Assembly (NCBI GenBank): GCA_003563895.1
Contig: PWTK01000029.1
Location: 2,378 to 66,377, forward strand
Length of the DNA stretch: 64,000 bases
Direction of reading: 5' to 3'
DNA from: Syntrophomonadaceae bacterium
GTDB lineage: Bacteria > Bacillota > Dethiobacteria > DTU022 > UBA8154
Below the pieces are notes generated by a model, which saw nothing but the letters and a program-made list of their open reading frames with translations, ran no database searches and was not told the DNA's origin. The first letter of the stretch is position 1. Every line of letters starts with the position of its first letter. Made by a program: the position numbers and the translations under genes. Below are positions 5,773 to 55,922 of the stretch, piece after piece.

Positions 5773-5851
5773 CAAGGTAGCTTCCTCCTTCAGCAAATCC
5801 CAAACAGTAATGCAAACCATGCCAAAGTGCTCTTGTGCTTCGGTTTCCCTA

Positions 5852-7360: not shown

Positions 7361-7435
7361 AGCGGGTCACTCCTTTAAATTATATTATAACATAACCGCC
7401 CATACAATAAATAATTTGAAAGTTTTCTTTTTTCC

Positions 7436-8905
7436 CTAAAGTACTATCGCCTGTTCCAGGAGCGCCAGGATGGGTCCGGGGTAAAAACCGAAAAAAATCA
7501 CACCGGCCGCGAGTATTAATACCGGCACCAGCATCATGCCGGGTACATCCCTGTGTTCTGAACGGGGCTCAATTTTCACGCCGAAGAACGCATTGATCAC
7601 AATGGGCAAATAGTAAATCCCGTTTAAGAGGCTGCTCAACAGGATGATCGCCACGAAAAATGGCCTTCCCAGGTCGAGGGCCCCCAGGGCCAGATGCCAC
7701 TTGCTGATGAAACCGTTGGTGCCTGGAATGCCGACCATGGAAAAAGCGCCGATGGCAAAAGCCCCCATGGTCAGGGGCATGCGAACCCCGATTCCCCTCA
7801 GATCCCTGATATTTCTAATGCCCGCTGCATATATGATCAGGCCTGCCGCCAAAAAAAGCATGGACTTCATCAGGGCATGGTTGAAAATGTGCACCAGCCC
7901 CCCCAGCAAAGCCCTGTTTCCAAAAAGACCGATGCCCATGAACACAAAACCGATCTGGGCGATGCTGGAATAGGCCAGCATGCGCTTGATATCCTCCTGC
8001 ACCATGGCAAAAATGGAACCTGCCATGACCGCCAGAACCGAAAGAAAAAGCAGTATATCCAACACAGGGACGACTTCGAACAGCTCGGCTGGAAAAACGC
8101 GGAACAGGAGCCGCAGGATGGCGGCCGCATAAATTTTAATCACCAGGCCGGAGAGGACGGCGCTGGAAGGGGAGGGCGCTGAAGAGTGGGCATCCGGCAG
8201 CCAGATGTGCAGCGGGAAAAGGGCAGACTTGACGCTAAAACCAACGATAAAAAGGCTCAGCGCCATCAGGATGTTGTATGGGTATTCCGCGATGGCCTGT
8301 GGAAGCTCCTGGGCCACAAAATCGTAATTCAGGTAGCCGGTGATCATGTAGATCATGGCCACACCGAGCAAAACGCAGCCGGAACCCAACACGCTTAAAA
8401 TAAGGTATTTAAAGCTGGCCTCGATACATTCCCGGTCTTTTTTGATGGAAATAATGCCGCACGCCGAGATTGTCGAGATCTCCAGGAAAACAAACAGGGT
8501 GAAAAGGTCGTTGGTGAGGGCGATGCCTATCATTGAAGCCAGCAGCAGAAGGTACAGGGTATAATACCAGCTCATCACTTCCGCCCTGATCTCGTGGTAG
8601 AGGTCGCGAGCACCGTAAACCATCACCACCAGGCAGATGGAGCTCAAAACCATCATCATGTAAACAGCCAGGTGATCAATATAGAGTTCCACCCCCCACG
8701 GCGGAGGCCAACCTCCCACGTGGTAGGAAAAAGCCCCCCTGCTTTCAACCAGGTAAATGAGGTAGAGGGAAACGGTAAATACGGCTCCCAGCACAGAAAG
8801 CGTAAAGGGCAAAGCAGCAGCCCTCGCGCCCCTTCTGAGGAGAGGCATGACAAAAGAAGCGAGCAGTAATAAGGCGATAGAAATTACAGGAAGGTGGAGG
8901 GACAC
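7436..8905 (-). CDS. mnhD: Mrp/Mnh subunit D-like (MbhH-type) antiporter-like subunit
   Basis: ORF 7436-8980, with start revised to GTG 8905 (GGGAGG SD, 1 nt after the mnhC stop). Motif IWLPDAHSSAPSPSSAVLSG. Confidence 0.85.
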   Translation of the reverse strand: MSLHLPVISIALLLLASFVMPLLRRGARAAALPFTLSVLGAVFTVSLYLIYLVESRGAFSYHVGGWPPPWGVELYIDHLAVYMMMVLSSICLVVMVYGARDLYHEIRAEVMSWYYTLYLLLLASMIGIALTNDLFTLFVFLEISTISACGIISIKKDRECIEASFKYLILSVLGSGCVLLGVAMIYMITGYLNYDFVAQELPQAIAEYPYNILMALSLFIVGFSVKSALFPLHIWLPDAHSSAPSPSSAVLSGLVIKIYAAAILRLLFRVFPAELFEVVPVLDILLFLSVLAVMAGSIFAMVQEDIKRMLAYSSIAQIGFVFMGIGLFGNRALLGGLVHIFNHALMKSMLFLAAGLIIYAAGIRNIRDLRGIGVRMPLTMGAFAIGAFSMVGIPGTNGFISKWHLALGALDLGRPFFVAIILLSSLLNGIYYLPIVINAFFGVKIEPRSEHRDVPGMMLVPVLILAAGVIFFGFYPGPILALLEQAIVL

Positions 8906-8906
8906 T

Positions 8907-9284
8907 TCAGCTTTCCTCCCTGGCGCGAATTTGGGCGATTTCGTTCGCACAACACGTTCCATACTGCTTGTAAAGCTCAACGATCAGGCTGAGCGCATAA
9001 GCGGTAACGCTGACCGCCACCACGATACCGGTCAGTATCAGGGCTGAAGGCAGGGGGTTCACATACATCTCCGCTTCAACGCCGGGTTGGATAATTGGGG
9101 CCATTCCACCCCGACGGTAGCCGATAGAGACGAAAAAAAGGAAGATGGAGGTATCCATGATATTCATCCCGATCACTTTTTTAATCAGGTTCGAATGGGT
9201 TAACATGGTATGAATCCCGATGATGAAGAGCACCATGGAAACAAAATAATAATAATTCTCCAGCAGTCTACTGATGATCTCCAC
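8907..9284 (-). CDS. mnhC: Mrp/Mnh subunit C (NuoK-like)
   Basis: 125-aa ORF with 3 TM helices and a NuoK/MnhC-like sequence. Overlaps the upstream mnhB end. Confidence 0.85.
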   Translation of the reverse strand: MEIISRLLENYYYFVSMVLFIIGIHTMLTHSNLIKKVIGMNIMDTSIFLFFVSIGYRRGGMAPIIQPGVEAEMYVNPLPSALILTGIVVAVSVTAYALSLIVELYKQYGTCCANEIAQIRAREES

Positions 9285-13311: not shown

Positions 13312-14124
13312 TCAGCTCACATAGACCTTGCCCACGTCCCTGATAATCCCCCTCTTGCAAACCTTCACACACTCGCCGCAGTCATCGCATTTATCGCTGT
13401 CGATATAGGCCAGGTTTTCCTCCACCACGATGGCATCCTGCGGGCAGGCCTTGACGCAGGCTTTATCGCCAATACACCCCACCTCGCACACCTGGCGGGT
13501 TGTTTTGCCGCGATCCTTGGAGTTGCAGGGGACGTATTTGCCGCCGCGGTCGGCTTTTTCGATTTGGATAATGTCGCGCGGGCAGGCCTTGACACAAATG
13601 CCGCACCCGGTGCATTTTTCCTCATCCACGATGGGGATCCCCTGGCTCCCCGGATGAATTGCCTCAAAGGGGCAGACTTCCACGCAGGTGTCCAGGCCCA
13701 GGCAGCCGTACTGGCAGGCCTTGAACCCTCCGCTCATTTTCTGGGCGGCATTGCAGTCCTTTACGCCGTGGTACTCAAACCGATCCGGGGCCACATCCGG
13801 CGTTCCGATGCAGTAGACCACGGCCACCCTCCTCTCTTCGGAGGCGACCGACTCCAGGCCGAGCAGCTCACAGATGCTGTTGATTGTCTCTTTTCCCGCC
13901 GGGATACAACCGTCCACCGGCGCCTCGCCGCAGACAACGTTCTCAGCAAAGCTTATGCAGCCCGGCCAGCCGCAGGCTCCGCAGTTGGCATTGGGAAGAA
14001 GGTCGCAAATCGTTTCCACGCGGGGGTCTTCTTCAACGGCGAAGCGCTGCGCCGCGACGGCCAGCAGCCCTCCGAAAAGCAAGCCCAACCCCCCTATAAT
14101 AGCCAGAGCTTGGATCAGGTCCAC
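13312..14124 (-). CDS. rnfB: Rnf complex subunit B (polyferredoxin-type)
   Basis: 270-aa ORF with an N-terminal TM anchor, a Cys-rich domain and several CxxCxxCxxxCP motifs (CTGCGICVKACP, CDDCGECVKVC). Confidence 0.9.
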   Translation of the reverse strand: MDLIQALAIIGGLGLLFGGLLAVAAQRFAVEEDPRVETICDLLPNANCGACGWPGCISFAENVVCGEAPVDGCIPAGKETINSICELLGLESVASEERRVAVVYCIGTPDVAPDRFEYHGVKDCNAAQKMSGGFKACQYGCLGLDTCVEVCPFEAIHPGSQGIPIVDEEKCTGCGICVKACPRDIIQIEKADRGGKYVPCNSKDRGKTTRQVCEVGCIGDKACVKACPQDAIVVEENLAYIDSDKCDDCGECVKVCKRGIIRDVGKVYVS

Positions 14125-14138
14125 TCTTTCTCACCTCC

Positions 14139-14717
14139 CTATAAAGTCACCATTCCGGCAAATCCCATAAAAGCGAGGGAAAGGATGCCCGCCGTTACCA
14201 ACGTAACGGAAGCTCCTCTTAAAAAGCTGGACATACTCACCAGTTCCATTCTCTCCCTGATTCCGGCCATGACCACCACGGCAATGGTAAAACCAATGGC
14301 CGCAGCGATGGCATAAACGATGGTTTGGATGATGTTGTGCCCTTGGTCGATGTTCAATATGGCCACGCCCAGGATGGCACAGTTGGTGGTCATGAGGGGC
14401 AGATAGATGCCCAGCGCCCGAAAAAGGGTGGGGTTGGTCTTTTTGAGCACGATCTCCACCAGCTGCACCAGGGATGAAATCACCAGGATGAAGGAGATGG
14501 TCCTCAGGTAATGGAGGTTCAGGGGTTCAAGTATCCCGTAAAAAATCAGCCAGGAAATAACGGCTGCCAGGGTCATCACAAAAATTACCCCCATCCCCAT
14601 TCCCAGGGAGGTCTCCACTCTCTGGGTTACCCCCATGTAGGGACAGATGCCCAGGAACTGCATTAAGACGATGTTATTTGCCAGTATCGCCACAAATATG
14701 ATCGGCAGCAGGTCCAT
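14139..14717 (-). CDS. rnfA: Rnf complex subunit A
   Basis: 192-aa polytopic ORF of the RnfA/NqrE family. Its position in the rnfCDGEAB order supports the call. Confidence 0.9.
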   Translation of the reverse strand: MDLLPIIFVAILANNIVLMQFLGICPYMGVTQRVETSLGMGMGVIFVMTLAAVISWLIFYGILEPLNLHYLRTISFILVISSLVQLVEIVLKKTNPTLFRALGIYLPLMTTNCAILGVAILNIDQGHNIIQTIVYAIAAAIGFTIAVVVMAGIRERMELVSMSSFLRGASVTLVTAGILSLAFMGFAGMVTL

Positions 14718-14747
14718 TTTTCATGCCTCCCTTAACTCGTTAGTCCG

Positions 14748-15350
14748 CTACTCAATACCGAGGCGCTTGAACATTACATTAAACAGGGCCACCAGCACGC
14801 CAAGGGCGATGAATGCCCCCGGAGGAGAGGCCAGAAGCCCCATCGGTTCAAAGGCGGTACCCACAATATTAAACCCAAATAAGGTGCCGGCGCCAAGAAT
14901 TTCCCTGACGATGCCCAATACCGTCAGGGCGATGGTGAAGCCGATCCCCACGCCCAGGGCATCAATGATGGACCGGCCGATGGTGTTTTTGCGCGCAAAC
15001 GCCTCAGCCCTTCCCATAATCATGCAGTTCACCACGATTAAGGGAATAAATATACCCAGCGCCTCGTGCAGATCCGGAAGAAATGCGTTCAAGGTCAGGT
15101 CCACGATGGTCACAAACGTAGCAATGATCAGGATGAAAGCGGGAATCCGGACCCGGCTGGGAACAAAATCTTTAATCGCCGACACCACGATGTTGGAACC
15201 CAGCAGCACAAATGTGGCCGCGATGCCCATTCCAAAAGCGTTAAAGGCCGTGATCGACACGGCTAGAACCGGGCAAAGCCCCAACAAAAGGCGGAAAACC
15301 GGGTTTTCCACGAAGATGCCCTTGCTGAACTCTTGAGCAATGGTCCTCAC
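14748..15350 (-). CDS. rnfE: Rnf complex subunit E
   Basis: 200-aa polytopic ORF of the RnfE/NqrD family. GTG start 7 nt after GGAGGTG. Confidence 0.9.
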   Translation of the reverse strand: MRTIAQEFSKGIFVENPVFRLLLGLCPVLAVSITAFNAFGMGIAATFVLLGSNIVVSAIKDFVPSRVRIPAFILIIATFVTIVDLTLNAFLPDLHEALGIFIPLIVVNCMIMGRAEAFARKNTIGRSIIDALGVGIGFTIALTVLGIVREILGAGTLFGFNIVGTAFEPMGLLASPPGAFIALGVLVALFNVMFKRLGIE

Positions 15351-15405
15351 TACGTTTCACCTCCATAAAGTCCCTGTCTCAAAAAAACTGCTGCATGAAA
15401 ATCAA

Positions 15406-15536
15406 GGCTCTTTTAAATTAAAGTGCTGATATTGTTTGGAATTTAGGTGCTGTGTCCTCGAACAAGAAAATGGAAAACGAAATGAGGTAAGCAATAAAGG
15501 GTATTTAATGCTATCAACAATGCTTTTAAAAAGAGC
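15406..15536. mobile_element. 131-bp AT-rich MITE-like insertion between rnfG and rnfE
   Basis: Terminal inverted repeats ggctcttttaaa / ttaaaaagagcc. Flanking 8-bp direct repeats aaaatcaa / aaaattaa. AT-rich against GC-rich surroundings. Confidence 0.6.
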
Positions 15537-15545
15537 CAAAATTAA

Positions 15546-16367
15546 TTAGTTTAAAGCGTCAGCCACAGCCTCCACAATTCCTTCGGCACTTGCCGTGGCA
15601 CCGGACACCATCTCCACATCGTGGCTCTGCGCTTCAATAATGCGTCCGGGCATTTCCGCAGCTGCCTGGTCGAAATAATCAGGCGTATCGTCGTGGGAAA
15701 TGATCTCAATATCCGTGATCTCTCCTCCGCTTACTGTTACTTCGACCTCGATGTCATCTGCGAAACCAGTTCCCACACCGGTGTAAGTCCCATCGTCCAC
15801 CGCCGAGGGATCGATCTCCACCACTTCGACTTCCAATCCCAGGAACTCCATGCCGATGGTATCCACTTCCTCGCGTATGGAACTGACGATACCTCTTAAG
15901 GTGACCGTGGCACCGGATATTGCATCGACGTCTACATCCACGGCAATTTCATCATCAAAGGTGAGCCCCACGATTTGTTGTTCCTGCCATTCTTCTTCTG
16001 CAATGAAGTCTCCTATCCCCGGGGTTTCGGTGTGGGATACAACCCGAATGCCGACAATTTCCCCCTCCATGTCGACGGCCAGGTCGTAACGGATGGGTTC
16101 ATCGCCGTAGCCGCTGGCCCTGGCTTGCGCCACTACGCCGATTTCGTTGCCGGCTGCGTCATAGGCAATAAAGTACTTCTGGTCGTTGATTTCCTTTTCT
16201 TCGGCCTCCTCCACTTCGGGGAAGAAACCCTCCAGCGCCTCCAGGAACTCCCGCTGCTGCCGCTCTTCTATAATGGGCTCGGTATAGCTGTTTACAGCAG
16301 AGAGAAGGCCTCCGCAAACGCCGCCGATGATCAACAGGGTTACGGCCATACGCAAACCTTCACGCAT
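15546..16367 (-). CDS. rnfG: Rnf complex subunit G with an extra C-terminal FMN-binding domain
   Basis: 273-aa ORF. It has a TM anchor, an FMN_bind domain ending ISGATVTLRG and a second FMN_bind-like domain ending VSGATASAEG. Confidence 0.9.
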   Translation of the reverse strand: MREGLRMAVTLLIIGGVCGGLLSAVNSYTEPIIEERQQREFLEALEGFFPEVEEAEEKEINDQKYFIAYDAAGNEIGVVAQARASGYGDEPIRYDLAVDMEGEIVGIRVVSHTETPGIGDFIAEEEWQEQQIVGLTFDDEIAVDVDVDAISGATVTLRGIVSSIREEVDTIGMEFLGLEVEVVEIDPSAVDDGTYTGVGTGFADDIEVEVTVSGGEITDIEIISHDDTPDYFDQAAAEMPGRIIEAQSHDVEMVSGATASAEGIVEAVADALN

Positions 16368-16368
16368 C

Positions 16369-17289
16369 TTATTGTTTCACCTCCCCAAATTTTTTCGGTA
16401 TGGTCAGGCTGTCAATGAAAGGCGTCAGCCCGTTCATCAACAGGATACCATATGTCACGCCTTCCGGATAACCCCCCCAGAACCGGATGGCCATGGTCAC
16501 TGCGGCACATCCCGCTCCGAAAATAAGTTTCCCGGTAGGGGTTACCGGAGATGTCACCATGTCGGTGGCCATATAGAGCGCCCCCAGCATCACGCCTCCG
16601 GCCAGGACGTGGTAAAGGCCCATGGTGAATCCGCCGTCGAAAAGACCCAGGATAAAGACCACGCCGATAAAGCTGCCCGGGATGCGCCAGTCGATATGTC
16701 CCCTGTAGAATAAAAAGATAGCACCGATAATGAGGGCCAGGGCGGAAGTTTCTCCGAGAGAACCGGGGACGGTTCCGATGAACAGATCCAGCAGAGAAGC
16801 ATCATAGGTCTCCAGTGGCGTGGCCTGGGTAGTCAGATCTACTGTAAAGTTAAAGGGCTCAGGCCTTCCCCATATGTCCCCGGCCATGTGCCCAGCCCAG
16901 GAAACCAGCAGGACGGCACGGCCAACCAGGGCCGGGTTAAAAGTGTTGTTCCCGATCCCCCCGAAAAGATGCTTGCCAATGCCGATCGACACTGCTGAAC
17001 CGACAACAACCAGCCACCAGGAAGCGTCCGGGGGAAGGCACATCGCCAGCAGCAGGCCCGTTACCGCAGCGCTGCCGTCACCAAAAAATCCCTTTCGAAG
17101 AATCACCGCTTCTGTAGCCATGGCGGCCAATATCGCGATAACCATCGTAATCAGGGCATGATAGCCGAAAAGAAATACCGCCATCAAGGCAACCGGAAAA
17201 AGAGCGACCAGGACATCGACCATGATGCTCTGAATATCTTCCGGCGATTTAAAGTGCGGCGATGATGAAACGACAAGCTTTCTCTCCAT
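16369..17289 (-). CDS. rnfD: Rnf complex subunit D
   Basis: 306-aa polytopic ORF of the RnfD/NqrB family, starting MERKLVVSSSPH. Confidence 0.9.
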   Translation of the reverse strand: MERKLVVSSSPHFKSPEDIQSIMVDVLVALFPVALMAVFLFGYHALITMVIAILAAMATEAVILRKGFFGDGSAAVTGLLLAMCLPPDASWWLVVVGSAVSIGIGKHLFGGIGNNTFNPALVGRAVLLVSWAGHMAGDIWGRPEPFNFTVDLTTQATPLETYDASLLDLFIGTVPGSLGETSALALIIGAIFLFYRGHIDWRIPGSFIGVVFILGLFDGGFTMGLYHVLAGGVMLGALYMATDMVTSPVTPTGKLIFGAGCAAVTMAIRFWGGYPEGVTYGILLMNGLTPFIDSLTIPKKFGEVKQ

Positions 17290-17314
17290 TTTATAATCCC
17301 TCCTCCATTCGTTG

Positions 17315-18655
17315 CTACTTTTTCCTGCGCGCCGCTATTTCCCCCTTGGCAAGCTTAATCCACTGAACCAGGGGCCGGTTCGCCGGGCAGATGTATGTGC
17401 AGCAACCGCATTCGAAACAATCCATGGCTCCGTATTTTTCAGCCATATCTATATTCTCTATTTCCCCAGCAGAGCCGATGGTATTGGGAAGCAGGTTCAT
17501 CGGGCAGTTATCCACACATTTTCCGCACTTAATACAGGGGTCGATGGGAAACTCCTCTACAAACTCTTCTGTCAAAATCAGGATCCCTGAGGTCCCTTTG
17601 ATGCAGGGCACCTCGGTCGTCGGCTGAGCGAGACCCATTAACGGCCCGCCAAGGACCACCTTGCGGGCATCATCGGTCATTCCGCCGCACTGCTCGATTA
17701 CATCCTCCACCAGGGTGCCGTTGCGGACCATCAGGTTGGCGGGTTCTTTGATCCCGGGACCGGTTACCGTAACCACCCTCTCATAAAGCGGCTTGCCCAG
17801 CTTGATGGCCTCGGTCATGGCAACAGCGGTCCCAACGTTCTGGTTGACCACGTTCACCGCCATGGGCAGGGCTCCAGGAGGGACTTCCCGACCGGTGGTG
17901 GCTTTGATCAGCATTTTTTCTGCACCCTGCGGGTACTTGGTATGAAGCGATTGAACTTCCAGGTTGTACCCTCCACCGACTTCGGCCACGGCCTTTTGCA
18001 CGCTCTCGATGGCATCGGGCTTGTTGTCCTCAATGCCGATGATCCCCCTTTCCGCCCCCAGGGCCTTCATGAAGGCCATGGTCCCGTAAACCATGTCCTC
18101 CGCCCTTTCCAGCATGATGCGATGGTCGGCCGTGAGAAAAGGTTCACATTCAGCTCCATTAATAATGAGGGTGTCAATTTTGAATTCGGGTGGCGGAGCG
18201 AGTTTGACGTGGGTCGGGAACGTTGCGCCGCCAAGCCCTACCAGCCCGGCTTCTTTGGCGATCTCCTTTATTTCATCGGGCGTCAACTCCTCCAGGGCCT
18301 TGTTCGGCTTGATGCTTTCATCCGGAGTATCCTGGCCGTCGCTTTCAATAATCACGGACTCCACAGGATTGCCCAACGGGTGATAAAAAGGAGCAATTTT
18401 TGTGACCTTTCCCGAAACGCTGGAATGTATGGGAGCGGAAACAAATCCCTTTGGCTCGCCAATCTTCTGCCCAACCTTTACCTCGTCCCCTTCCTGGACA
18501 ACCGCTTCACAGGGTGCTCCAATGTGCTGCTGCAAAGGGATCACGACCCGTGAAGGGGGACGGGCAGGAGTAATGGCCATCCCTGCTGTGGCTTCCTTGA
18601 AGTAGCTGGGATGTATGCCGCCAACAAAAGTCCTTTCACTCATGCACTCATTCAC
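17315..18655 (-). CDS. rnfC: Rnf complex subunit C
   Basis: 446-aa ORF with two ferredoxin motifs (CIKCGKCVDNCP, CFECGCCTYICP) and a GLGGATFP nucleotide-binding region. Start is 18655 or 18643. Confidence 0.9.
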   Translation of the reverse strand: MNECMSERTFVGGIHPSYFKEATAGMAITPARPPSRVVIPLQQHIGAPCEAVVQEGDEVKVGQKIGEPKGFVSAPIHSSVSGKVTKIAPFYHPLGNPVESVIIESDGQDTPDESIKPNKALEELTPDEIKEIAKEAGLVGLGGATFPTHVKLAPPPEFKIDTLIINGAECEPFLTADHRIMLERAEDMVYGTMAFMKALGAERGIIGIEDNKPDAIESVQKAVAEVGGGYNLEVQSLHTKYPQGAEKMLIKATTGREVPPGALPMAVNVVNQNVGTAVAMTEAIKLGKPLYERVVTVTGPGIKEPANLMVRNGTLVEDVIEQCGGMTDDARKVVLGGPLMGLAQPTTEVPCIKGTSGILILTEEFVEEFPIDPCIKCGKCVDNCPMNLLPNTIGSAGEIENIDMAEKYGAMDCFECGCCTYICPANRPLVQWIKLAKGEIAARRKK

Positions 18656-26037: not shown

Positions 26038-26610
26038 ATGGTTTTAAATGATATTAGAAAGCAACCGTTTCTCCGACTGGCGGTTCTTTTTATCCTGGTG
26101 GCCGCTCTTTTTTTCTTTCCGGGATGTGGAGAGGAAACAGGAGAAATAACGGAGATAGAAGCTGAAGAACAGAAAGAATTTATCGCCTGGGCCAGGCCTT
26201 TATGGCAGCATATTGATAAATCGGACCAGGCATGGCTGCATATGTCGCGCACCATGGTTTTCTACACGGATGAAGAAGAAAAAGCATCCAGGGATGAGCT
26301 GGAAAGCATCGCGGCAGATAGCATTAAGCTGCACGAAGAGTTGATCGACTACTTCAGCGACACGGCTGGCAGCGGCGACGAAAAAAAACTGCTTCAAGAT
26401 CTCAGCAGGGAACTCTGCCAGGCTCGACTGGAAGCCAGCGAGTATATTGTAGAGTGCCTGCAAAAAGACGAAATGCCTGATGCAAGAAGCGAATACTTTG
26501 CAGCGGTACAAAAAAAGGCCCGCGCCCTGGGTGCCGAATTCGAATCCATCATGAAGGGATATGACGTTGTTTGGGCGCACTTGAGGTATTTCGAAGATAA
26601 GCCCCAGTAA
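26038..26610 (+). CDS. Hypothetical lipoprotein
   Basis: ORF 25990-26610, with start revised to ATG 26038 (GGGAGG upstream). Signal peptide with lipobox FFPGC. No family recognised. Confidence 0.6.
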   Translation: MVLNDIRKQPFLRLAVLFILVAALFFFPGCGEETGEITEIEAEEQKEFIAWARPLWQHIDKSDQAWLHMSRTMVFYTDEEEKASRDELESIAADSIKLHEELIDYFSDTAGSGDEKKLLQDLSRELCQARLEASEYIVECLQKDEMPDARSEYFAAVQKKARALGAEFESIMKGYDVVWAHLRYFEDKPQ

Positions 26611-26644
26611 TCTTAACATATGTACTGTGATTCTCTTAAAAAGG

Positions 26645-26675
26645 AAGCTGCCCCTTTACGGGCAGCTCTTTTTTA
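26645..26675 (+). terminator. Rho-independent terminator of the lipoprotein gene
   Basis: agctgccc-ctttac-gggcagct followed by a T-tract. MITE B2 is inserted right at the T-tract. Confidence 0.75.
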
Positions 26676-26678
26676 ATT

Positions 26679-26834
26679 CAGACTATCATCGGGCTTGCTC
26701 AGGATGACAATGAACGAAGCCCCGCAAAAAAGAGGTTTTAAAAGGTCACACTTACAAAAAGGCCTTGATCTGCTAAAAAGCTGTATTTTGGGGGCCATTC
26801 AACAAGAATTCCCTGAGTTAAGTTGATAATCATG
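26679..26834. mobile_element. MITE B2 (IS1595-like termini)
   Basis: Flanked by the direct repeat ttttttaatt (26669-26678 and 26835-26844). Imperfect TIRs cagactatca...ctcagg / cctgag...tgataatcatg. Confidence 0.8.
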
Positions 26835-26854
26835 TTTTTTAATTTTATTTTAAA

Positions 26855-27104
26855 GGGGGTACGCGGTTAGCTCCAGTTGTGATATAGTTAAAATAATATT
26901 TCACAACTGGGAGAACTAAAATGGATCATGATTACCCAAATACCCATTGTCAATTTGTAATATGTTTCCTGACGATGTAACGTGTGCTAATTATTTGGCA
27001 CTTCTACGCTGGCCTGAAGGCTTTATCTGCATAGATGTAAGATCTCTTCAACACCGGCTATAATTGGGGTTACAATGATTTGCTGGAGCTAACTGCGTAC
27101 CCCC
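26855..27104. mobile_element. IS1595-family deletion derivative (MITE E1) retaining a transposase N-terminal remnant
   Basis: 22-bp TIRs gggggtacgcggttagctccag / ctggagctaactgcgtaccccc (1 mismatch). Flanking direct repeat ttattttaaa. Confidence 0.8.
26962..27063 (+). pseudogene. Remnant of the IS1595-type transposase N-terminus (zinc-ribbon region)
   Basis: The 33-codon remnant MFPDDVTCANYLALLRWPEGFIC... matches the conserved start of ISXO2/IS1595 transposases (..C..YL..LRWP.GF.C). Confidence 0.65.
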
Positions 27105-27132
27105 ATTATTTTAAACCATCGGCAAGCGTTGC

Positions 27133-27402
27133 TTACGAAACCTTGACACCGAGGCCTCCCCATAGAGGCCTCAAAAATATTTTCACCTTCCCGGCGTTAA
27201 AGGGATGGCCCAGAAATATTTTGATATCTTCTTCCTCGTACTCCCGGTATTCCTTTTTGTTTTCCGGTTGTCCTGCAAACACGGCAGGCTTGTAGGTAAA
27301 ACCCGTTCAGCCGCCGCACATCACCATCTTCAAGGTTACGGCATTGGTGTTTTTCTTCTTGGTTAAATATTGTTTGGCTTCCGGAGTGACTTCTATGCGC
27401 AA
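27133..27402 (-). CDS. Candidate small selenoprotein (HesB/IscA-like GG-U-xGF motif), 89 codons with in-frame TGA at 27307-27309
   Basis: TTG start 8 nt after AAGGAGG, with a consensus promoter upstream. The frame stays open for 57 codons past the TGA, and a SECIS-like hairpin sits at 27272-27288. Not in the ORF track because each half is under 60 aa. Confidence 0.6.
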
Positions 27403-27423
27403 TATCCACACCTCCTTTTTTCA

Positions 27424-27452
27424 ATTATACTATAGAGTTATTTCGCTGTCAA
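27424..27452 (-). promoter_or_regulatory. Consensus sigma-70-type promoter of the UGA-containing small gene
   Basis: Minus strand reads TTGACA, a 17-nt spacer, then TATAAT, about 20 nt upstream of the start codon. Confidence 0.7.
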
Positions 27453-27569
27453 TAAATATCCACCCATCAGCAATGCGCTCATGGTGACTTTGCCCCTCGC
27501 GCCCGTTTTGGTGTCCCACAATTTTTCGTTCCAGAAGGCAATAGGGACTTTTATTTTTTCGGCTGTTAA

Positions 27570-27578
27570 TGGTATAAT
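27570..27578 (+). promoter_or_regulatory. Extended -10 element (TGgTATAAT) upstream of the S8 protease gene
   Basis: tggtataat lies 38 nt upstream of ATG 27616. Confidence 0.45.
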
Positions 27579-27615
27579 TTTATAAGCTTGGCCTGTAGTA
27601 AGATCCCGGGAAAGG

Positions 27616-30525
27616 ATGCCGGTACAGGATATGAAAAAGCACAAGAATGATTCATCCCCGCTTTTGTTTTTTTTGGTCTTTCTTCTCGTTTTTTTCTCCT
27701 CCTTTTCCGCTTCCCCGGACTTTTTGACTGACAGCGCTTTCGCCGCTGTCAGTCAAGAAATCGAGGATTCCTTCAAGGATAATGAGTTCGTTCCCGTGAT
27801 CGTCATCCCCGAGCACACTACATATGAGGGAAATGGCGTCAACCCTTCCACTTCTTCAAATTCGGGCGAAGATTTGGTGGAAGAGCTTAAAAACAAATCC
27901 GGGAACGTCTCGGCATCCCTTAAAGAGAACCTGCGGCCGGAAATTGACAAAGGGAACGTCATAGACCTGCACTTTTTCTGGATCGTCAACGCCTTTGCCG
28001 CAAAAGTGAACCGGGAAGGCCTCACGGCGATCGCCGCCATGCCGGAAGTAGATCGAGTGATCAAAGACCGCTCCCACGCGCTGCAGGGTTCCGTTGCGCC
28101 TCCTGCTGAAGAGATCGAGGAAAATCCTTCTCTTCAAAACCGGCCCCTCCCCTGGAACCTGCAGCAAATTAACGCCCACCGCATATGGCAAAGAGGGATT
28201 TACGGAAAAGATGTGGTGGTGGCCGTTATGGATACCGGGGTTGACCCCTCCCACCCGGCTTTGGAAGAAAGCTATCGGGGGTTCCAGGAGGGGCACGACC
28301 ACAAAACCAGCTGGTTTGATGTTGCCGCCGGGCTGGAAGGTAGCGGAGAAAAAGAGCCGAATGATCCAAACGGTCACGGCACTCATATCGCCGGGGTTAT
28401 TCTCGGCGGCACGCCTTCCGACCCCCAGGGAGTGGCACCGGCCGCCCGGTGGATGGCGGTGAATATTTTCAGCGAGGGGTACGCCTGGGACTCCCAGATA
28501 ATCAAGGCTTTTCAGTGGCTTCTGGCCCCCAATGACAACCCTGAAAACGCCCCCGATATCATCAACTGCTCCTGGGCTTCAAGGCCTGATTATGTGGCAG
28601 ACCCGCTCCAGTGGGAATTGCTTCATAATTTAGAAAAGGCCGGGATTTTTGTCGTGTTTGCTGCAGGGAACAACGGAGCGGCAGGCCCCGGAAGCCCCGC
28701 CAGTTTTCCTCACGCCTTTTCTGTAGGAGCCTTGAGGCGGGACGATGAGGGAATGGTCGACCTGGCGAATTTCAGCAGCAGGGGAATCGTCGACTGGAAC
28801 GGCATCCGCTATCCCAAACCGGAATTGACCGCTCCCGGCACAGGAATCACATCTGCCTGGCCTGGGGGAGGCCATCACACCCTCGACGGAACCTCCATGG
28901 CGGCAGCCCATGTCTCCGGCACTGCGGCGCTGCTCTTGGAAGCAAAACCTGGGTTGCTGCCCTACCAAATTGGTTATACACTGAAGCACACGGCCCGCTG
29001 GGATGCCTCCTGGGGGGAAGAAAACCGGCCGAACCCCCGCTACGGCCATGGAATGGTCGATGCCTTCAGAGCGTTGACCGGCAAAGATGCCCCTGCTGAA
29101 GAGACCCTCTTTAAGGATGAAGTGGAAGAAGAAAGTGACCTTTGGAATACTTCTCCGAAGCACCCCTGGAGAGCATCCGGTGAAAAGGTGTTTGAAGGCG
29201 AGTTCGCCCACGCAGACTCGCCTTGGGGCAACTATGCCCGCGATGCCCATTCCTGGATAGCCATAGCCGAAGCCGTACCCCTCTGTGGTTACCATTATCC
29301 CGTCCTTTCATTCAAACATTATTACGATCTCCATCCCGGCAAGAGCGGGGAAGAAGACGATTACGCCTACGTGGAAATCTCGCCCAATAACCGGGATTGG
29401 GTGCGCCTTTACCGATTTTCGGGCACAAACGAAGATTTCCAGTCTTTTGCCCTTCCAGTTCACCTGCCTCCTGACACAAAGGAACTACACCTGCGCTTCC
29501 GCCTGGAAAGCAACAACAGTGGAGAGGGAAAAGGGTGGTACATAGACCGGATACAAATCGATGCCGCACCCCTTCCTTTAACTGCACTGGCTGCCCTGGA
29601 GCTCAGACCCGAGAAAAGCCAGCTGGGAGTCAATGAAGTAATGCAGATAGAGGTGGAGGCCCTCTTCTGTTCGAAAGTCTCTCGCCCGGTGGATGTGGAG
29701 AGTGTCCGGTGGAGCACGTCCGATCAGGAGATCGCTATTGTAAAAAGCGGCAGGGTCACAGGGGTATCCCCCGGAGAGGTCACCATTGAAGGCCGGTTTT
29801 CTGGAAAAACGGCTGAAGTGAACATGGAAGTGGTACGGGTTGCAGCTCCGGAAGCATCGCCTGCCGCCGGTCTCTTCTATAATTCGGTAGAAGTCGAGTT
29901 GATCCCGCCAAAGCCGGGAGTGGAAATCCGCTACACTCTTGACGGCAGCAAACCTGGGCCCGAAAGCCCTCTCTATGAAGAACCCTTGAAGATCGATTCG
30001 ACGACGATCATTAAAGCCAGGGCTTACGACGATGGAATTCCGGGACCGGTCCAGTTGATGCCTTTCCGCATTAAAGAGGGGGGGAAGGTGGAAGGCCGCG
30101 TAGCGCTTCAGGGAAGAGATTTCATAGATGATAAAACGCGGGCTTTTTTCCTCTGCCTCGACGAAAAAAGCCGCTACCCCGTGGCTGCAATCCGGCGCGA
30201 CGGGACATTTTCCACGGGACTCCCGCTGGGCCGTTATGCGCTGGTGCTGGAAAGGGATAAGTACCTGAGGCGGGCCTCGGAGTTTGCCGTCCTGGAAAAG
30301 GGGGAGATAATAGAGCTGCCCCCGCAGGAACTCCGGGCAGGGGACATCACCGGGAGCAACAAGGTAGGACTTGCTGATTTGGCGGCGTTAACCCTGGCTT
30401 TTGAAAGCGTGCGCGGGGAAGAAAGCTGGAATCCCTCGGCCGACCTGGACGGTGACGGTGTAATAGACTCGAGGGACCTGGAACTGCTGAGAGAAAATTA
30501 CGGCCTGAAGGGAGACGAGTTATAA
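27616..30525 (+). CDS. Secreted multidomain S8 (subtilisin-family) serine protease with a C-terminal dockerin
   Basis: 969-aa ORF with a signal peptide and an I9-like propeptide. Catalytic D (VMDTGVD), H (HGTHIAG) and S (GTSMAAAHVSG). Also a Big_2-like domain, a chitobiase/Fn3-associated-like domain and dockerin repeats (GDITGSNKVGLADL, DLDGDGVIDSRDL). Confidence 0.9.
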   Translation: MPVQDMKKHKNDSSPLLFFLVFLLVFFSSFSASPDFLTDSAFAAVSQEIEDSFKDNEFVPVIVIPEHTTYEGNGVNPSTSSNSGEDLVEELKNKSGNVSASLKENLRPEIDKGNVIDLHFFWIVNAFAAKVNREGLTAIAAMPEVDRVIKDRSHALQGSVAPPAEEIEENPSLQNRPLPWNLQQINAHRIWQRGIYGKDVVVAVMDTGVDPSHPALEESYRGFQEGHDHKTSWFDVAAGLEGSGEKEPNDPNGHGTHIAGVILGGTPSDPQGVAPAARWMAVNIFSEGYAWDSQIIKAFQWLLAPNDNPENAPDIINCSWASRPDYVADPLQWELLHNLEKAGIFVVFAAGNNGAAGPGSPASFPHAFSVGALRRDDEGMVDLANFSSRGIVDWNGIRYPKPELTAPGTGITSAWPGGGHHTLDGTSMAAAHVSGTAALLLEAKPGLLPYQIGYTLKHTARWDASWGEENRPNPRYGHGMVDAFRALTGKDAPAEETLFKDEVEEESDLWNTSPKHPWRASGEKVFEGEFAHADSPWGNYARDAHSWIAIAEAVPLCGYHYPVLSFKHYYDLHPGKSGEEDDYAYVEISPNNRDWVRLYRFSGTNEDFQSFALPVHLPPDTKELHLRFRLESNNSGEGKGWYIDRIQIDAAPLPLTALAALELRPEKSQLGVNEVMQIEVEALFCSKVSRPVDVESVRWSTSDQEIAIVKSGRVTGVSPGEVTIEGRFSGKTAEVNMEVVRVAAPEASPAAGLFYNSVEVELIPPKPGVEIRYTLDGSKPGPESPLYEEPLKIDSTTIIKARAYDDGIPGPVQLMPFRIKEGGKVEGRVALQGRDFIDDKTRAFFLCLDEKSRYPVAAIRRDGTFSTGLPLGRYALVLERDKYLRRASEFAVLEKGEIIELPPQELRAGDITGSNKVGLADLAALTLAFESVRGEESWNPSADLDGDGVIDSRDLELLRENYGLKGDEL

Positions 30526-46118: not shown

Positions 46119-47099
46119 TCAAAATGCCTTCAAGTGGATGATCCTGAGGCTGTAGCGCCCGAGCCCAAACGTGCTGCCCGCCCCCAGGTTGGTAAATTCG
46201 CCGAGCTTCAGGATCGGAGCATATTCCGCTGCCGAGCCCTCGTAGTGGACTTCACCGATAATCCCTTCCGGCCTGGAACTGCGCCCCGGAAACTGCTCCC
46301 AGGAAACAAACCGGGTCTGATCGCGGATAATTTCCACCCTGGCGGCGTCTCCCAAATATTTGCCGTAATCTAAATCCAGCTCTTTCAGCCCGTGATATTG
46401 ATAATAAAGCAGCGATATCCTTCTCAACAGCGCCCGGAGCACTACCTGGAAGGCGGGTCTTCTCAGTTTTTCTTCCTCCAACTGAAGGAGCAGGGGAGTT
46501 TGAAATTTCAAGGAAAACCTTTGGGCCGGCGGTTGCCTGGCAGCCCATTCTTCTATTTGGCTACCGGTAATGACAGCCTTATCAAATTTCTTTTGCACCG
46601 CTTCCCCGGAGCTCGGGGAAAACAGGGAACATCGCAGGCCGGAAAAAGGGTTGTTGAGCCTGGCTTCCTGCAGAAAGGCTCCCGTGCGCCGCCCCCTGGG
46701 CATGCTCCCCAAAAAAGTCTGCAGGCTTTTTAGCAGCACCGCAAGGTGTCCTATGCCGCTGCCAAAAAGGGTTAAGCCAAAAGCAAATTTTTCCCCTTCG
46801 AGATAACTGGTTTTCTTCTCCGGGGGAAAGCTCCAGGCCAGGGGAGGGACAACAGGAAAAAGCGGATGTGTCTTTTTGGCCTGCAGCTGCTCCGTTTCAT
46901 ACATCAGGGCAAAGGTGCAGCTTTGGAAAAGCGGGCAGCCACTGCAGACCTCGCGACTGATCCTGCAGGATTCGCTTCTTAAGGCTTCTTTAAAATCTTC
47001 ATCCCACAGCAGGGAGGCTTTTTCCTTGGGAAGCGTACCCATCTTTTCATGTATGGAAAAAACAAACTGACAGTTTGCCAGCCGAAAGTCCTGGATCAT
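46119..47099 (-). CDS. cas6: Orphan Cas6-type RAMP protein (CRISPR_Cas6/PF10040-like)
   Basis: ORF 46119-47156, with start revised to ATG 47099. Cys cluster CSGCPLFQSCTFALMYE, LKFQTPLLL, and a C-terminal G-rich loop GEFTNLGAGSTFGLGRY as in type III Cas6 proteins. Confidence 0.7.
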   Translation of the reverse strand: MIQDFRLANCQFVFSIHEKMGTLPKEKASLLWDEDFKEALRSESCRISREVCSGCPLFQSCTFALMYETEQLQAKKTHPLFPVVPPLAWSFPPEKKTSYLEGEKFAFGLTLFGSGIGHLAVLLKSLQTFLGSMPRGRRTGAFLQEARLNNPFSGLRCSLFSPSSGEAVQKKFDKAVITGSQIEEWAARQPPAQRFSLKFQTPLLLQLEEEKLRRPAFQVVLRALLRRISLLYYQYHGLKELDLDYGKYLGDAARVEIIRDQTRFVSWEQFPGRSSRPEGIIGEVHYEGSAAEYAPILKLGEFTNLGAGSTFGLGRYSLRIIHLKAF

Positions 47100-47229
47100 T
47101 GTTATTTCCTGCTCCCCGTGTGGAAAAATGATTAAAGAGTGGCATTTTCCATACAATTCTTTCTGTCAGCCCGATTTTCCTGCCTCTTCAGATTTTTATT
47201 GCTTCGCTAGTGAATGTCGGTTAATTTTA

Positions 47230-52151: not shown

Positions 52152-52290
52152 TTACTTTTCACCCCCCGATGCAGTATATGAAATTCGTTCTATCGACAAA
52201 GAATTTCCTGCACGCCTACAATACAATGTATGTGCACCAGCCTGCTCCGGCTATTATATCTTTTTTGGATCAACCGGGCAGCTGTATCCA

Positions 52291-53745: not shown

Positions 53746-53800
53746 AGATGCTTTTTCCAGCTAAATCACCACCCTTCCAGCCTACATTATATTCTTTTAT

Positions 53801-53951
53801 CTGGCTATCAAGCTTAATCAGAAACTCCGATTTACAAGCCTTATGATATGGCCATTTAACAGATCTTCAGCACATTATCTTGTGAAGTCCATCTAAAGCC
53901 TTGAATATACAGGCCTCGTTCACTATTACCCTGAGCTAACTGATAGTCATG
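53801..53951. mobile_element. MITE B3 (divergent member of the B family) inside the Mrp-2 operon
   Basis: Flanked by the 9-bp direct repeat ttcttttat (53792-53800 and 53952-53960). Termini ctggctatcaagcttaatcag / ccctgagctaactgatagtcatg. Confidence 0.75.
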
Positions 53952-53965
53952 TTCTTTTATTCTTT

Positions 53966-54106
53966 GATAATTATCGATTTAGCTCAGGAACCTTTTATAC
54001 ATGATGCGCTGGCTAAATGGATTCCAGTGCCACAGGTGCGGGCATGAGCATACTTACGAGATTGTAACCAAGAAACTGCCCTTTCCTGAGTTAATCGGAT
54101 AGCCAT
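53966..54106. mobile_element. IS1595-family deletion derivative (MITE E2) with a transposase zinc-ribbon remnant
   Basis: Termini gataattatcgatttagctcagg / cctgagttaatcggatagccat. Ends 12 bp from the stop of the upstream mbhE-like gene. Confidence 0.7.
54001..54102 (+). pseudogene. Remnant of the IS1595-type transposase N-terminal zinc ribbon
   Basis: The 33-codon remnant MMRWLNGFQCHRCGHEHTYEIVTKKLPF... matches the LRWPNGFxCPxCG signature. Confidence 0.65.
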
Positions 54107-54118
54107 AAATTTCTTTTT

Positions 54119-54424
54119 TTATTCTTTCACGCTCTGTACGCCCCAGAGCACAATAATTGCCATAACTGCTGTAAAGAGCACCGTGGTTTCCAGCATGGTA
54201 TCGTAAGCGCGGTAGTCCAGCAGAACATTGGTTACAAAATTGTAGCCGCCGCTTTCCTCTACCCCCTTGTCCACGTAGCGCTTCATCACATAATTGTTGG
54301 TCGGGTTGTCCACTTCTCCGTAATCGGGCATTTCAACAACGGTCATCATCAGCACCCCCGCTATCATGATGACCAGGAGAGCAACCGTGCACAAGTAAAT
54401 TATTTCCCGCCAGTTAACCCTCAT
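54119..54424 (-). CDS. MnhB-related small subunit (MbhE-type), Mrp-2
   Basis: 101-aa ORF with motif FVTNVLLDYRAYDTMLE. Paralogue of 9730-10077. Confidence 0.75.
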   Translation of the reverse strand: MRVNWREIIYLCTVALLVIMIAGVLMMTVVEMPDYGEVDNPTNNYVMKRYVDKGVEESGGYNFVTNVLLDYRAYDTMLETTVLFTAVMAIIVLWGVQSVKE

Positions 54425-54672: not shown

Positions 54673-54675
54673 CTT

Positions 54676-55035: not shown

Positions 55036-55111
55036 TATAAAGCCCCCTTTTGGCTGCTTGAGCGCCTTATCACCTGCAGGGTGGTCCAGGTTATATTTTA
55101 AGGCATACTTC

Positions 55112-55898: not shown

Positions 55899-55922
55899 TG
55901 CTCCAACAACCCCTCTTATCCC

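What the first reader, a model, noticed from the sequence alone, without database searches (positions are those of the whole stretch)
27133..27452. Unannotated 89-codon gene with in-frame UGA, SECIS-like hairpin and consensus promoter: candidate HesB/IscA-like selenoprotein
The minus strand has TTGACA (27452-27447), 17 nt, TATAAT (27429-27424), then AAGGAGG, an 8-nt spacer and a TTG start at 27402. The translation is MRIEVTPEAKQYLTKKKNTNAVTLKMVMCGG-[TGA 27309-27307]-TGFTYKPAVFAGQPENKKEYREYEEEDIKIFLGHPFNAGKVKIFLRPLWGGLGVKVS-TAA (27135-27133). The frame stays open for 57 codons after the TGA, so each half falls below the 60-aa ORF-track threshold. The TGA sits where A-type Fe-S carrier/HesB proteins have their first conserved Cys (G-G-C-x-G-F-x-Y; here G-G-U-T-G-F-T-Y). 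A Cys lies three residues upstream, which could form a C-x-x-U redox pair. Eighteen nt downstream of the TGA is a hairpin CCUGC-CGUGUUU-GCAGG (27288-27272) with G/U in the apical loop. It is extendable by a lower stem GUUUU (27302-27298) / AAAAC (27263-27259). That is the position and shape expected of a bacterial SECIS. HesB-like selenoproteins have been described as a family. This locus would still be missed by standard gene callers, and the C-terminal half lacks the usual IscA CGCG motif.
Basis: partly seen in the sequence, partly recalled or inferred. Interest (0 to 1): 0.75.

Follow-up and report, generated by a model that had tools for sequence, protein, structure and literature searches.

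The report
Small selenoprotein gene, known CC/Se family
This is a real 89-codon gene whose in-frame UGA almost certainly encodes selenocysteine; it belongs to an already catalogued but uncharacterised family ("CC/Se motif" selenoproteins) that is a distant relative of the IscA/HesB iron-sulfur carrier proteins.

Summary
As a single sequence the hairpin is not remarkable. The fold z-score is 0.19, and 8 % of the window's UGA triplets have an equally good hairpin. Comparison settles it. Ten distinct homologues (38-79 % aa identity) all have TGA at the same codon, and seven other relatives have Cys there. The reading frame after the TGA shows a normal coding signature. The four codons that build the hairpin (CCT GCC GTG nnn GCA) are identical in 10/10 genes, while all ten other invariant degenerate residues vary in codon choice. 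Cys-type relatives lack both the hairpin and the PAVxAG peptide it encodes. The protein scores 67.6 bits (cutoff 40) on NCBIfam NF041239, "CC/Se motif family (seleno)protein", which a 2026 review lists as a predicted selenoprotein family. It is not a member of the described HesB-like selenoprotein family (14 bits against a cutoff of 85). Remote homology to IscA/SufA is nevertheless supported (hhalign 95.7 %; Foldseek top hits), with Sec at IscA's first ligand Cys. Sec machinery could not be checked, because none lies in the window. Verdict: a real gene and a new member of a known kind, of modest interest.

The parts
27424..27452 (-). Sigma-70/sigma-A type promoter: TTGACA (27452-27447), 17 nt, TATAAT (27429-27424)
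   Evidence: 12/12 consensus match, the only perfect one in 26500-27700. The extended sequence TTGACAGCGAAAT...TATAGTATAAT recurs upstream of the homologues in L019/L034 and L020, and closely in L001.
27411..27417 (-). Ribosome-binding site AAGGAGG, 8 nt before the TTG start
   Evidence: Read directly from the sequence. The alternative in-frame GTG at 27411 overlaps the RBS and is therefore implausible. The N-termini of the homologues align with the TTG start.
27133..27402 (-). Coding sequence of 89 codons plus stop: CC/Se motif family selenoprotein (TTG start 27402, Sec codon 27309-27307, TAA 27135-27133)
   Evidence: NF041239 at 67.6 bits, E 7.8e-19, cutoff 40. Ten homologues are collinear over the whole length. 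The coding signature after the TGA (differences at codon positions 1/2/3 = 0.37/0.28/0.66) is like that before it (0.37/0.19/0.57).
27307..27309 (-). In-frame TGA, inferred selenocysteine codon (residue 32)
   Evidence: TGA at this column in 10/10 distinct Sec-type genes. TGC/TGT (Cys) in 7 Cys-type family members. The column aligns with the first ligand Cys of classical IscA.
27272..27288 (-). Upper SECIS stem-loop CCUGC-CGUGUUU-GCAGG (stem 27288-27284 / 27276-27272, loop 27283-27277 with invariant CGUG)
   Evidence: Stem and the first four loop bases are identical in 10/10 genes, including 4 synonymous positions, while all 10 other invariant degenerate codons vary. Absent from Cys-type genes. 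Meets the published bSECIS loop, stem, G and spacing rules.
27266..27303 (-). Possible lower SECIS stem: GGUUU (27303-27299) pairing with AACC (27269-27266), enclosing the upper hairpin with a 9-nt 5' bulge
   Evidence: RNAalifold consensus. 74 % of cells are paired and 3 pairs change on both sides, but this is not significant against shuffles (46/500 reach the score). Only 4 bp form in the window itself. Tentative.

Best explanation
The locus is a monocistronic gene with its own strong promoter. It encodes an 89-residue selenoprotein of the 'CC/Se motif' family (NCBIfam NF041239, Pfam PF28096). During translation the ribosome reaches UGA at codon 32. The stem-loop CCUGC-CGUGnnn-GCAGG lies 18 nt downstream, inside the coding sequence, and acts as a bacterial SECIS. 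SelB-GTP-Sec-tRNA(Sec) binds its apical loop (invariant C-G-U-G) and delivers selenocysteine, so translation continues for 57 more codons instead of stopping. Because the SECIS overlaps the coding sequence, it fixes the peptide P-A-V-x-A-G, which is found only in the Sec-type members. The protein folds like an A-type iron-sulfur carrier (IscA/SufA/HesB). Sec sits at the position of the first cluster-ligand cysteine, on the turn between two beta-strands. The C-terminal C-G-C ligand pair is missing, so each subunit offers a single selenol (plus a non-conserved Cys three residues upstream in this organism). The most likely role is a small carrier or redox protein that uses one reactive selenol to bind or transfer a metal, Fe-S or chalcogen species, probably as an oligomer or with a Cys-rich partner. 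SHOWN: gene structure; family membership; conservation of the TGA; Sec/Cys alternation; RNA-level constraint on the hairpin; translation of the downstream half (coding signature); fold-level homology to IscA. INFERRED: actual Sec insertion; SelB binding; presence of the Sec machinery in this genome; the biochemical function.
For: Family: NF041239 at 67.6 bits against cutoff 40, and all 12 collected relatives hit the same model. The family is listed as a predicted selenoprotein family with a CxxU motif in PMC13188914, Table 1. TGA: it sits at the same codon in 10/10 distinct genes with 38-79 % aa and 48-79 % nt identity. Three of these came from a metagenome scan whose pattern allowed TGA/TGC/TGT and did not include the hairpin. 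Cys forms align across the site. Downstream translation: the position-3 > 1 > 2 substitution pattern after the TGA, and 16 synonymous-only codon differences against the syntenic orthologue. RNA element: P39 CCT, A40 GCC, V41 GTG and A43 GCA are identical in 10/10, against 0 of 10 other invariant degenerate columns being identical. My arithmetic gives Fisher p of about 0.001. Variation resumes at the wobble base of G44, immediately outside the stem. Cys-type genes lack the hairpin and lack PAVxAG. Geometry fits the published bSECIS model: 7-nt loop, 5-6 bp upper stem, G at loop position 2 followed by U, and 23 nt from UGA to the loop. PMC4605307 describes a conserved loop G about 20 nt after UGA. 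TGA is an ordinary stop in this genome, for example for PEPCK, the ACT protein and the PTA-like gene. An orthologous locus in conserved synteny (L034) has the same TGA, and the JGI gene caller split it into 31-aa and 48-aa ORFs. Fold: the AF2 model has pLDDT 82. The Foldseek top six hits are all IscA-fold proteins with probability 0.94-1.00 and TM 0.52-0.68, and the next hits have probability below 0.1. hhalign gives 95.7 %, E 1e-8, over 82 columns, with Sec aligned on the IscA Cys.
Against: No selA, selB, selD or tRNA-Sec lies in the 64-kb window or in any related contig, so the Sec-decoding trait of this organism is unverified. The stem shows no compensatory covariation because it never varies, so the support is conservation only. 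The hairpin alone is not statistically unusual in a single sequence, and the upper stem alone (-7.0 kcal/mol) just misses the -7.5 kcal/mol rule. Rfam has no matching family. There are no expression, proteomic or 75Se data. Nothing is known experimentally about the family's function. Gene neighbourhoods are not consistent enough to assign a pathway.
Confidence: 0.88

Rival explanations
1. Pseudogene: a Cys-type (TGC/TGT) gene that suffered a nonsense mutation to TGA, so that only a 31-residue fragment is made, or nothing functional at all.
For: TGC/TGT to TGA is a single base change, and Cys-type relatives exist. Gene callers treat the locus as two short ORFs.
Against: The same TGA occurs in 10/10 independent, divergent homologues. 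The downstream frame keeps a coding substitution pattern and stays open in all of them. The promoter and RBS are intact and conserved.
Confidence: 0.02
2. UGA is read as a standard amino acid (Trp or Gly, as in genetic codes 4 and 25, or by near-cognate read-through), not as selenocysteine.
For: Public gene calls for five homologues translate the codon as W. The Sec machinery is unverified for this organism.
Against: Those W calls do not re-translate under code 11 and come from contigs of 0.6-1.3 kb, where metagenome gene finders may pick code-4 models. In the window and in the syntenic 44-kb contig, TGA terminates ordinary genes and neighbouring genes are full length under code 11. The aligned residue in relatives is Cys, the usual partner of Sec, not Trp or Gly. 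A conserved SECIS-shaped hairpin has no role under a reassigned code.
Confidence: 0.04
3. The conserved hairpin is not a SECIS. Its conservation reflects protein-level selection on PAVxAG together with codon bias, or a different RNA function such as mRNA stability or ribosome pausing.
For: Four of the five stem pairs are forced by the amino acids P-A...A-G whatever the codons. There is no compensatory covariation. Rfam gives no hit.
Against: Four synonymous positions, including loop bases (GCC, GUG), are invariant in 10/10 genes while all ten other invariant residues vary in codon. Codon bias would have to act only on these four codons across different organisms. PAVxAG and the hairpin are both absent from the Cys-type members, which do not need a SECIS. 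Position and shape match the bSECIS model.
Confidence: 0.05
4. Two separate small proteins: a 31-residue peptide ending at the TGA, and an independent 49-residue protein started at the internal GTG (27282).
For: Both ORFs are called separately in public data (P0001, P0016, P0017, P0018).
Against: There is no RBS before the internal GTG, and internal start positions differ between homologues. Similarity to Cys-type relatives and to IscA is continuous across the junction as a single domain. Codons between the TGA and the GTG (TGFTYKPA) are among the best conserved in the family.
Confidence: 0.01

Closest known systems
[quoted passage not shown]
   Same: Scores well above the curated cutoff (67.6 against 40 bits). 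About 90 residues, single domain. Sec at the motif column with Cys three residues upstream (CxxU, as the review lists). Both Sec and Cys forms exist.
   Different: Nothing that defines the family differs. This copy comes from an uncultured organism also seen in a sediment metagenome (L036; the gene there is identical to the window's). Unlike several relatives, it has no DUF1540 gene downstream. The adjacent 'C-C / C-Sec' arrangement that gives the family its name appears in L003 and P0010 but not here.
A-type iron-sulfur carriers IscA / SufA / ErpA / HesB (Pfam PF01521 Fe-S_biosyn)
   Same: Same predicted fold (Foldseek: SufA 2d2a, IscA 1r94, AQ_1857 1nwb). Profile homology of 95.7 %. The local motif VMxGG[C/U]xGFxY is shared with classical IscA proteins recovered in the same scan. 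Sec occupies the first cluster-ligand Cys position.
   Different: Below the Pfam and NCBIfam thresholds (14.8 against 26.3 bits; 16.6 against 58.8). No PDB IscA sequence is hit by the family profile at E <= 10. The C-terminal C-G-C ligand pair is absent, so the canonical three-Cys cluster site cannot form within one subunit.
HesB-like selenoprotein family (TIGR01911 / NF038090 IscA_HesB_Se; motif UxGP)
   Same: Also a selenoprotein on an IscA/HesB scaffold found in anaerobes, with Sec and Cys forms.
   Different: The family model scores 14.1 bits against a cutoff of 85. The motif here is U-T-G-F, not U-x-G-P. It is a separate family.
Cys-less or single-Cys IscA-fold proteins DsrR (2k4z) and YneR (9a4q_B)
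   Same: IscA fold without the full ligand set, and both appear among the confident structural neighbours. They show that the scaffold is used for roles other than classical cluster carriage.
   Different: No Sec, no detectable sequence similarity, and different genomic contexts.
Bacterial SECIS elements (bSECIS consensus model; E. coli fdhF and M. thermoacetica fdhA hairpins)
   Same: Sits in the coding region just after the UGA, with a small apical loop carrying G then U, 23 nt from UGA to the loop, and a 5-6 bp GC-rich upper stem.
   Different: The sequence is specific to this family and invariant across it. No curated RNA model matches. SelB binding is untested.

Membership tests
CC/Se motif family (NF041239 / PF28096) | Whole-protein HMM score above the curated cutoff | tested here: met
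   67.6 bits, E 7.8e-19, cutoff 40, covering model positions 1-81 of 91. Homologues carry the precomputed tag PF28096.
CC/Se motif family (NF041239 / PF28096) | Sec (TGA) or Cys at the motif column, with CxxU listed as the motif | tested here: met
   The window has C-G-G-U. The column is TGA in 10 Sec-type and Cys in 7 Cys-type members. The review lists CxxU. The -3 Cys itself is present in only 4 of 10 Sec-type members.
CC/Se motif family (NF041239 / PF28096) | Small single-domain protein of about 90-100 residues | tested here: met
   89 residues; relatives are 88-100 residues.
HesB-like selenoprotein (NF038090 / TIGR01911) | HMM score above the curated cutoff | tested here: not met
   NF038090 scores 14.1 bits against cutoff 85. 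TIGR01911 was not reported at E <= 10.
HesB-like selenoprotein (NF038090 / TIGR01911) | U-x-G-P motif (PMC13188914 Table 1) | tested here: not met
   The window has U-T-G-F.
A-type Fe-S carrier IscA/SufA/ErpA (PF01521) | Pfam / NCBIfam score above threshold | tested here: not met
   PF01521 scores 14.8 against 26.3 bits. TIGR00049 scores 16.6 against 58.8, and the ErpA and SufA equivalogs score far below their cutoffs.
A-type Fe-S carrier IscA/SufA/ErpA (PF01521) | Three conserved ligand cysteines (C-x(n)-C-G-C) | tested here: not met
   Only the first position is occupied, by Sec. No Cys lies in the C-terminal half of any Sec-type member. Classical IscA proteins from the same scan end in CGCGSSF.
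A-type Fe-S carrier IscA/SufA/ErpA (PF01521) | IscA fold / superfamily-level homology | tested here: met
   Foldseek: SufA E 3e-4, IscA E 1e-3, TM 0.5-0.68, probability 1.00, on a model with pLDDT 82. hhalign 95.7 %, E 1e-8.
Bacterial SECIS (bSECIS consensus, PMC13188914 Fig. 2A) | Apical loop of 3-9 nt and upper stem of 4-16 bp | tested here: met
   7-nt loop. 5-bp stem, or 6 bp with a G-U closing pair in 7 of 10 members.
Bacterial SECIS (bSECIS consensus, PMC13188914 Fig. 2A) | G in the first two loop positions, usually followed by G or U | tested here: met
   The loop is C-G-U-G-n-n-n and the first four bases are invariant.
Bacterial SECIS (bSECIS consensus, PMC13188914 Fig. 2A) | 16-37 nt between UGA and the apical loop | tested here: met
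   18 nt to the stem plus a 5-nt stem gives 23 nt in all ten genes.
Bacterial SECIS (bSECIS consensus, PMC13188914 Fig. 2A) | Minimum free energy <= -7.5 kcal/mol | tested here: inconclusive
   The upper stem alone gives -6.6 to -7.0. With flanking pairs it gives -9.0 in the window and -10.6 to -17.4 in the others.
Bacterial SECIS (bSECIS consensus, PMC13188914 Fig. 2A) | Binds SelB and directs Sec insertion | not testable with these tools
   Requires biochemistry or in-vivo reporters.
Sec-decoding organism | selA, selB, selC (tRNA-Sec) and selD present in the genome | not testable with these tools
   None lies in the 64-kb window or in related contigs. The rest of the genome is not available.

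The most novel reading that the evidence does not exclude
The CC/Se family may be a distinct functional offshoot of the A-type carrier scaffold that works with a single selenol per subunit. In several lineages it may act together with the Cys-rich DUF1540 protein encoded immediately downstream, as a two-component carrier for a metal, Fe-S or selenium/sulfur species that has not been described. Its SECIS, invariant across distantly related bacteria, may travel with the gene as a self-contained Sec cassette and dictate the PAVxAG peptide.
Probability: 0.15. Interest if true: 0.55.

Novelty: new member of a known kind. Interest (0 to 1): 0.3.

Why it matters
For annotation, this is a clean example of a selenoprotein gene that ordinary pipelines mishandle in three ways, all seen in public data: it is omitted, split into two orphan mini-ORFs, or 'rescued' by wrongly switching to genetic code 4 (W at the Sec position). 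For biology, the family has no experimental characterisation. This analysis adds three points. First, it is a remote IscA/SufA homologue with Sec at the first ligand position and no C-terminal ligands. Second, its SECIS is invariant at the nucleotide level and explains a peptide motif (PAVxAG) present only in the Sec forms. Third, DUF1540 is a recurrent neighbour. These points give concrete handles for testing function. They do not change what is known about Sec decoding.

Tried and rejected
(1) Rfam scan of 26500-28000 at E <= 10: only noise hits (miRNA, lncRNA), no SECIS model.
(2) Single-sequence folding: z = 0.19, and the MFE structure does not even contain the hairpin, so thermodynamics alone gives no support.
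(3) Word-indexed protein search with U->C found only the 49-aa fragment P0001.
(4) Viral contigs: no relatives.
(5) The genome-collection scan used a back-translated pattern with TGY at the Sec column. It therefore could not match most TGA loci and returned only two loci.
(6) Exact look-up of the window's Fhs protein, to identify the source record, found nothing.
(7) Covariation test of the two-stem model: not significant. I do not claim covariation.
(8) Profile search of PDB sequences: no IscA hit at E <= 10. The homology shows only with hhalign and fold comparison.
(9) Screen of TGA-interrupted frames in the window for a second selenoprotein: only shadow frames and adjacent Mrp/Rnf genes.
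(10) NCBIfam typing of the ABC exporters upstream of Cys-type members: no model reaches its cutoff, so no functional hint.
(11) The 2008 and 2016 papers cited for the family do not mention Moorella or this family in their main text. Supplements were not read.

Full report
OBSERVATION. The promoter is the only 12/12 consensus match in 26500-27700. The mechanical ORF list splits the locus into a 34-aa and a 49-aa ORF. The hairpin CCUGC-CGUGUUU-GCAGG occupies 27288-27272, 18 nt after the TGA.

IS IT MORE THAN CHANCE? Not from this sequence alone. The 68 nt after the TGA fold no better than shuffles (z = 0.19), and the MFE structure omits the hairpin. Of 1902 UGA triplets in the window, 610 are followed by some hairpin of at least 5 bp that meets the loop, spacing and G rules, and 159 (8 %) by one at least as stable as this one. 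Rfam has nothing. The case rests on comparison.

FAMILY. With U replaced by C, the protein scores 67.6 bits (E 7.8e-19, cutoff 40) on NCBIfam NF041239, 'CC/Se motif family (seleno)protein'. It scores only 14.1 bits (cutoff 85) on the IscA_HesB_Se model and 14.8 bits (cutoff 26.3) on Pfam Fe-S_biosyn. [quoted passage not shown] No other paper in the library mentions it, and I found no functional data.

HOMOLOGUES AND THE TGA. The word-indexed search found only a 49-aa fragment identical to the C-terminal half. An exhaustive HMMER search with the 57-residue post-TGA half found two full-length proteins with 'W' at the Sec column. Their DNA has TGA there, so the gene finder had switched to code 4. 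A metagenome scan used a pattern covering only M-V-M-x-G-G-[TGA/TGC/TGT]-x-G-F and therefore did not include the hairpin. It returned three more family members, all with TGA, plus classical IscA genes with TGT. A genome scan gave a Desulfovibrionaceae MAG locus with ...APGC-TGA-AG... (C-Sec, which explains the family name) and a Clostridiales MAG locus with a true Cys. A profile search then gave three further 'W' (= TGA) proteins, orphan N- and C-terminal half-ORFs, and seven 99-residue Cys-type proteins, one of which NCBI names as this family. In total, 10 distinct Sec-type genes (38-79 % aa, 48-79 % nt identity) all have TGA at the same codon, and 7 Cys-type relatives have Cys. All 12 full-length relatives hit NF041239.

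THE DOWNSTREAM HALF IS TRANSLATED. After the TGA, mean pairwise differences at codon positions 1/2/3 are 0.37/0.28/0.66, the same pattern as before the TGA (0.37/0.19/0.57). TGA is an ordinary stop codon for neighbouring genes in the window, so a reassigned code is excluded. A 44-kb metagenome contig (L034) is syntenic with the window: ACT, AMP-ligase, IorA, IorB ... gene ... S8 peptidase, PEPCK, GTPase, with PEPCK 66 % and IorA 70 % identical. It carries the orthologue with the same TGA, called there as a 31-aa plus a 48-aa ORF.

THE HAIRPIN. In the 10-gene codon alignment, every invariant residue with degenerate codons outside the hairpin uses 2-4 different codons (10 of 10 columns). In contrast, P39 CCT, A40 GCC, V41 GTG and A43 GCA are identical in 10/10, and variation resumes at the wobble base of G44, the first base outside the stem. 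By my arithmetic the Fisher exact p is about 0.001. Position-3 divergence in the hairpin codons is 0.15 against 0.66 elsewhere. Four of the five stem pairs are dictated by the amino acids P-A...A-G, but the invariant synonymous bases include the fifth pair and two loop bases. The Cys-type genes have neither the PAVxAG peptide nor an equivalent hairpin. This is what one expects if the RNA element, and not the protein, imposes the motif. The geometry matches the published bSECIS model: 7-nt loop, 5-6 bp stem, G at loop position 2 followed by U, and 23 nt from UGA to the loop. There is no covariation: the upper stem never varies, and the putative lower stem (GGUUU/AACC) is 74 % paired with three double changes, which 46 of 500 shuffles also reach.

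RELATION TO IscA/HesB. The family profile does not hit any PDB IscA sequence. However, hhalign against a classical IscA gives 95.7 % probability (E 1e-8, 82 columns), with the Sec/Cys column on IscA's first ligand Cys. An AlphaFold2 model of a Sec-type member (pLDDT 82, pTM 0.68) has as its only confident PDB neighbours SufA, IscA, Aquifex AQ_1857, YneR and DsrR (probability 0.94-1.00, TM 0.52-0.68). All further hits have probability below 0.1. The protein is therefore a remote member of the A-type-carrier fold. It lacks the C-terminal C-G-C ligands and fails the membership thresholds of both PF01521 and the described HesB-like selenoprotein family.

FUNCTION. Only the Sec/Cys residue is conserved as a nucleophile. 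The -3 Cys of the window is Ser in half of the Sec-type members, so a CxxU redox pair is not general. Context gives weak hints. A DUF1540 (Cys-rich) gene follows the Sec-type gene in four lineages, but not in the window, where about 510 bp downstream is non-coding. Cys-type genes in Christensenellales sit about 35 nt after a pair of generic ABC-exporter genes. I infer a single-selenol carrier or redox protein on an IscA scaffold, with low confidence in the chemistry.

WHAT COULD NOT BE DONE. No Sec machinery lies in the window or in related contigs. No second selenoprotein gene was found in the window.

VERDICT. This is a real gene, almost certainly a selenoprotein with a coding-region SECIS. 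It is a new member of an already curated but uncharacterised family. Interest is modest (0.3).

Noticed in passing
window 26620-27132: About 510 bp downstream of the gene has no credible ORF in any minus-strand frame. The syntenic contig L034 carries DUF1540 and DUF1847 genes at this place, while the next neighbour (a 181-aa lipoprotein-like gene) is retained at 26053-26592 (+). The gap contains a promoter-like site (TTGACA-17-CATGAT, 26953-26925, minus strand), a long hairpin at about 26866-26916 that drew only noise-level Rfam hits, and a bidirectional terminator-like hairpin at 26645-26668.
   Followed up: partly
window 27151-27172 (minus strand, inside the 3' end of the gene): A perfect 8-bp GC-rich palindromic hairpin, GAGGCCUC-UAUGGG-GAGGCCUC, lies 15 nt before the stop codon and has no U-tract after it. 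I did not check whether it is conserved in the homologues.
   Followed up: no
P0002, P0005-P0008 (loci L001, L002, L037-L041); P0001, P0016-P0018: Public protein collections hold Sec-type members of this family in two wrong forms. One is full length with Trp at the Sec position, because the gene finder applied genetic code 4 to short contigs. The other is orphan N- or C-terminal half-ORFs. Both are systematic annotation artefacts for small selenoproteins.
   Followed up: yes
L028-L033 (Cys-type loci, Christensenellales and relatives): The Cys-type family member always sits about 35 nt downstream of two tandem ABC_membrane+ABC_tran exporter genes on the same strand, so it is probably co-transcribed. 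The exporters reach no NCBIfam cutoff (MsbA-, CydDC- and bacteriocin-exporter-like).
   Followed up: partly
L001 534-608; L034 10278-10460; L039 677-865; L040 460-645: A DUF1540 (small Cys-rich protein) gene lies 85-130 nt downstream of the Sec-type gene in four distinct lineages. It is absent in the window, L003 and L020.
   Followed up: partly
window 3334-8980 and 50127-58250; 13312-18655: The window holds two separate Mrp/Mnh-type multisubunit cation/proton antiporter-like clusters and a complete Rnf cluster, together with Fhs (62135-63904). The gene identical to the finding is also on a JGI contig whose sample name (SL_1KL_011_SED) suggests a lake-sediment metagenome. This fits an alkaliphilic or halophilic anaerobe, but the organism was not identified.
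   Followed up: no
window 46119-47156 (minus strand): An ORF with a C-terminal Cas6 domain (PF10040, E 6e-15) lies next to two PTA_PTB-like genes and an acetate-kinase-like gene. No CRISPR array was looked for. A weak CRISPR-DR10 Rfam hit at 26707-26743 is probably noise.
   Followed up: no
window 27616-30525 (+): Transcribed divergently from the selenoprotein gene is a 969-aa S8 subtilase with Big_2, CHB_HEX_C/Fn3-associated and type I dockerin domains. The pairing with the selenoprotein gene is conserved in L034-L036 (46 % identity), but this probably reflects synteny between related organisms and not a shared function.
   Followed up: partly
window 58423-59979 (minus strand): An MttB-family (trimethylamine methyltransferase-like) gene is read as one uninterrupted 518-aa ORF. 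It is therefore apparently a non-pyrrolysine member of that family.
   Followed up: no
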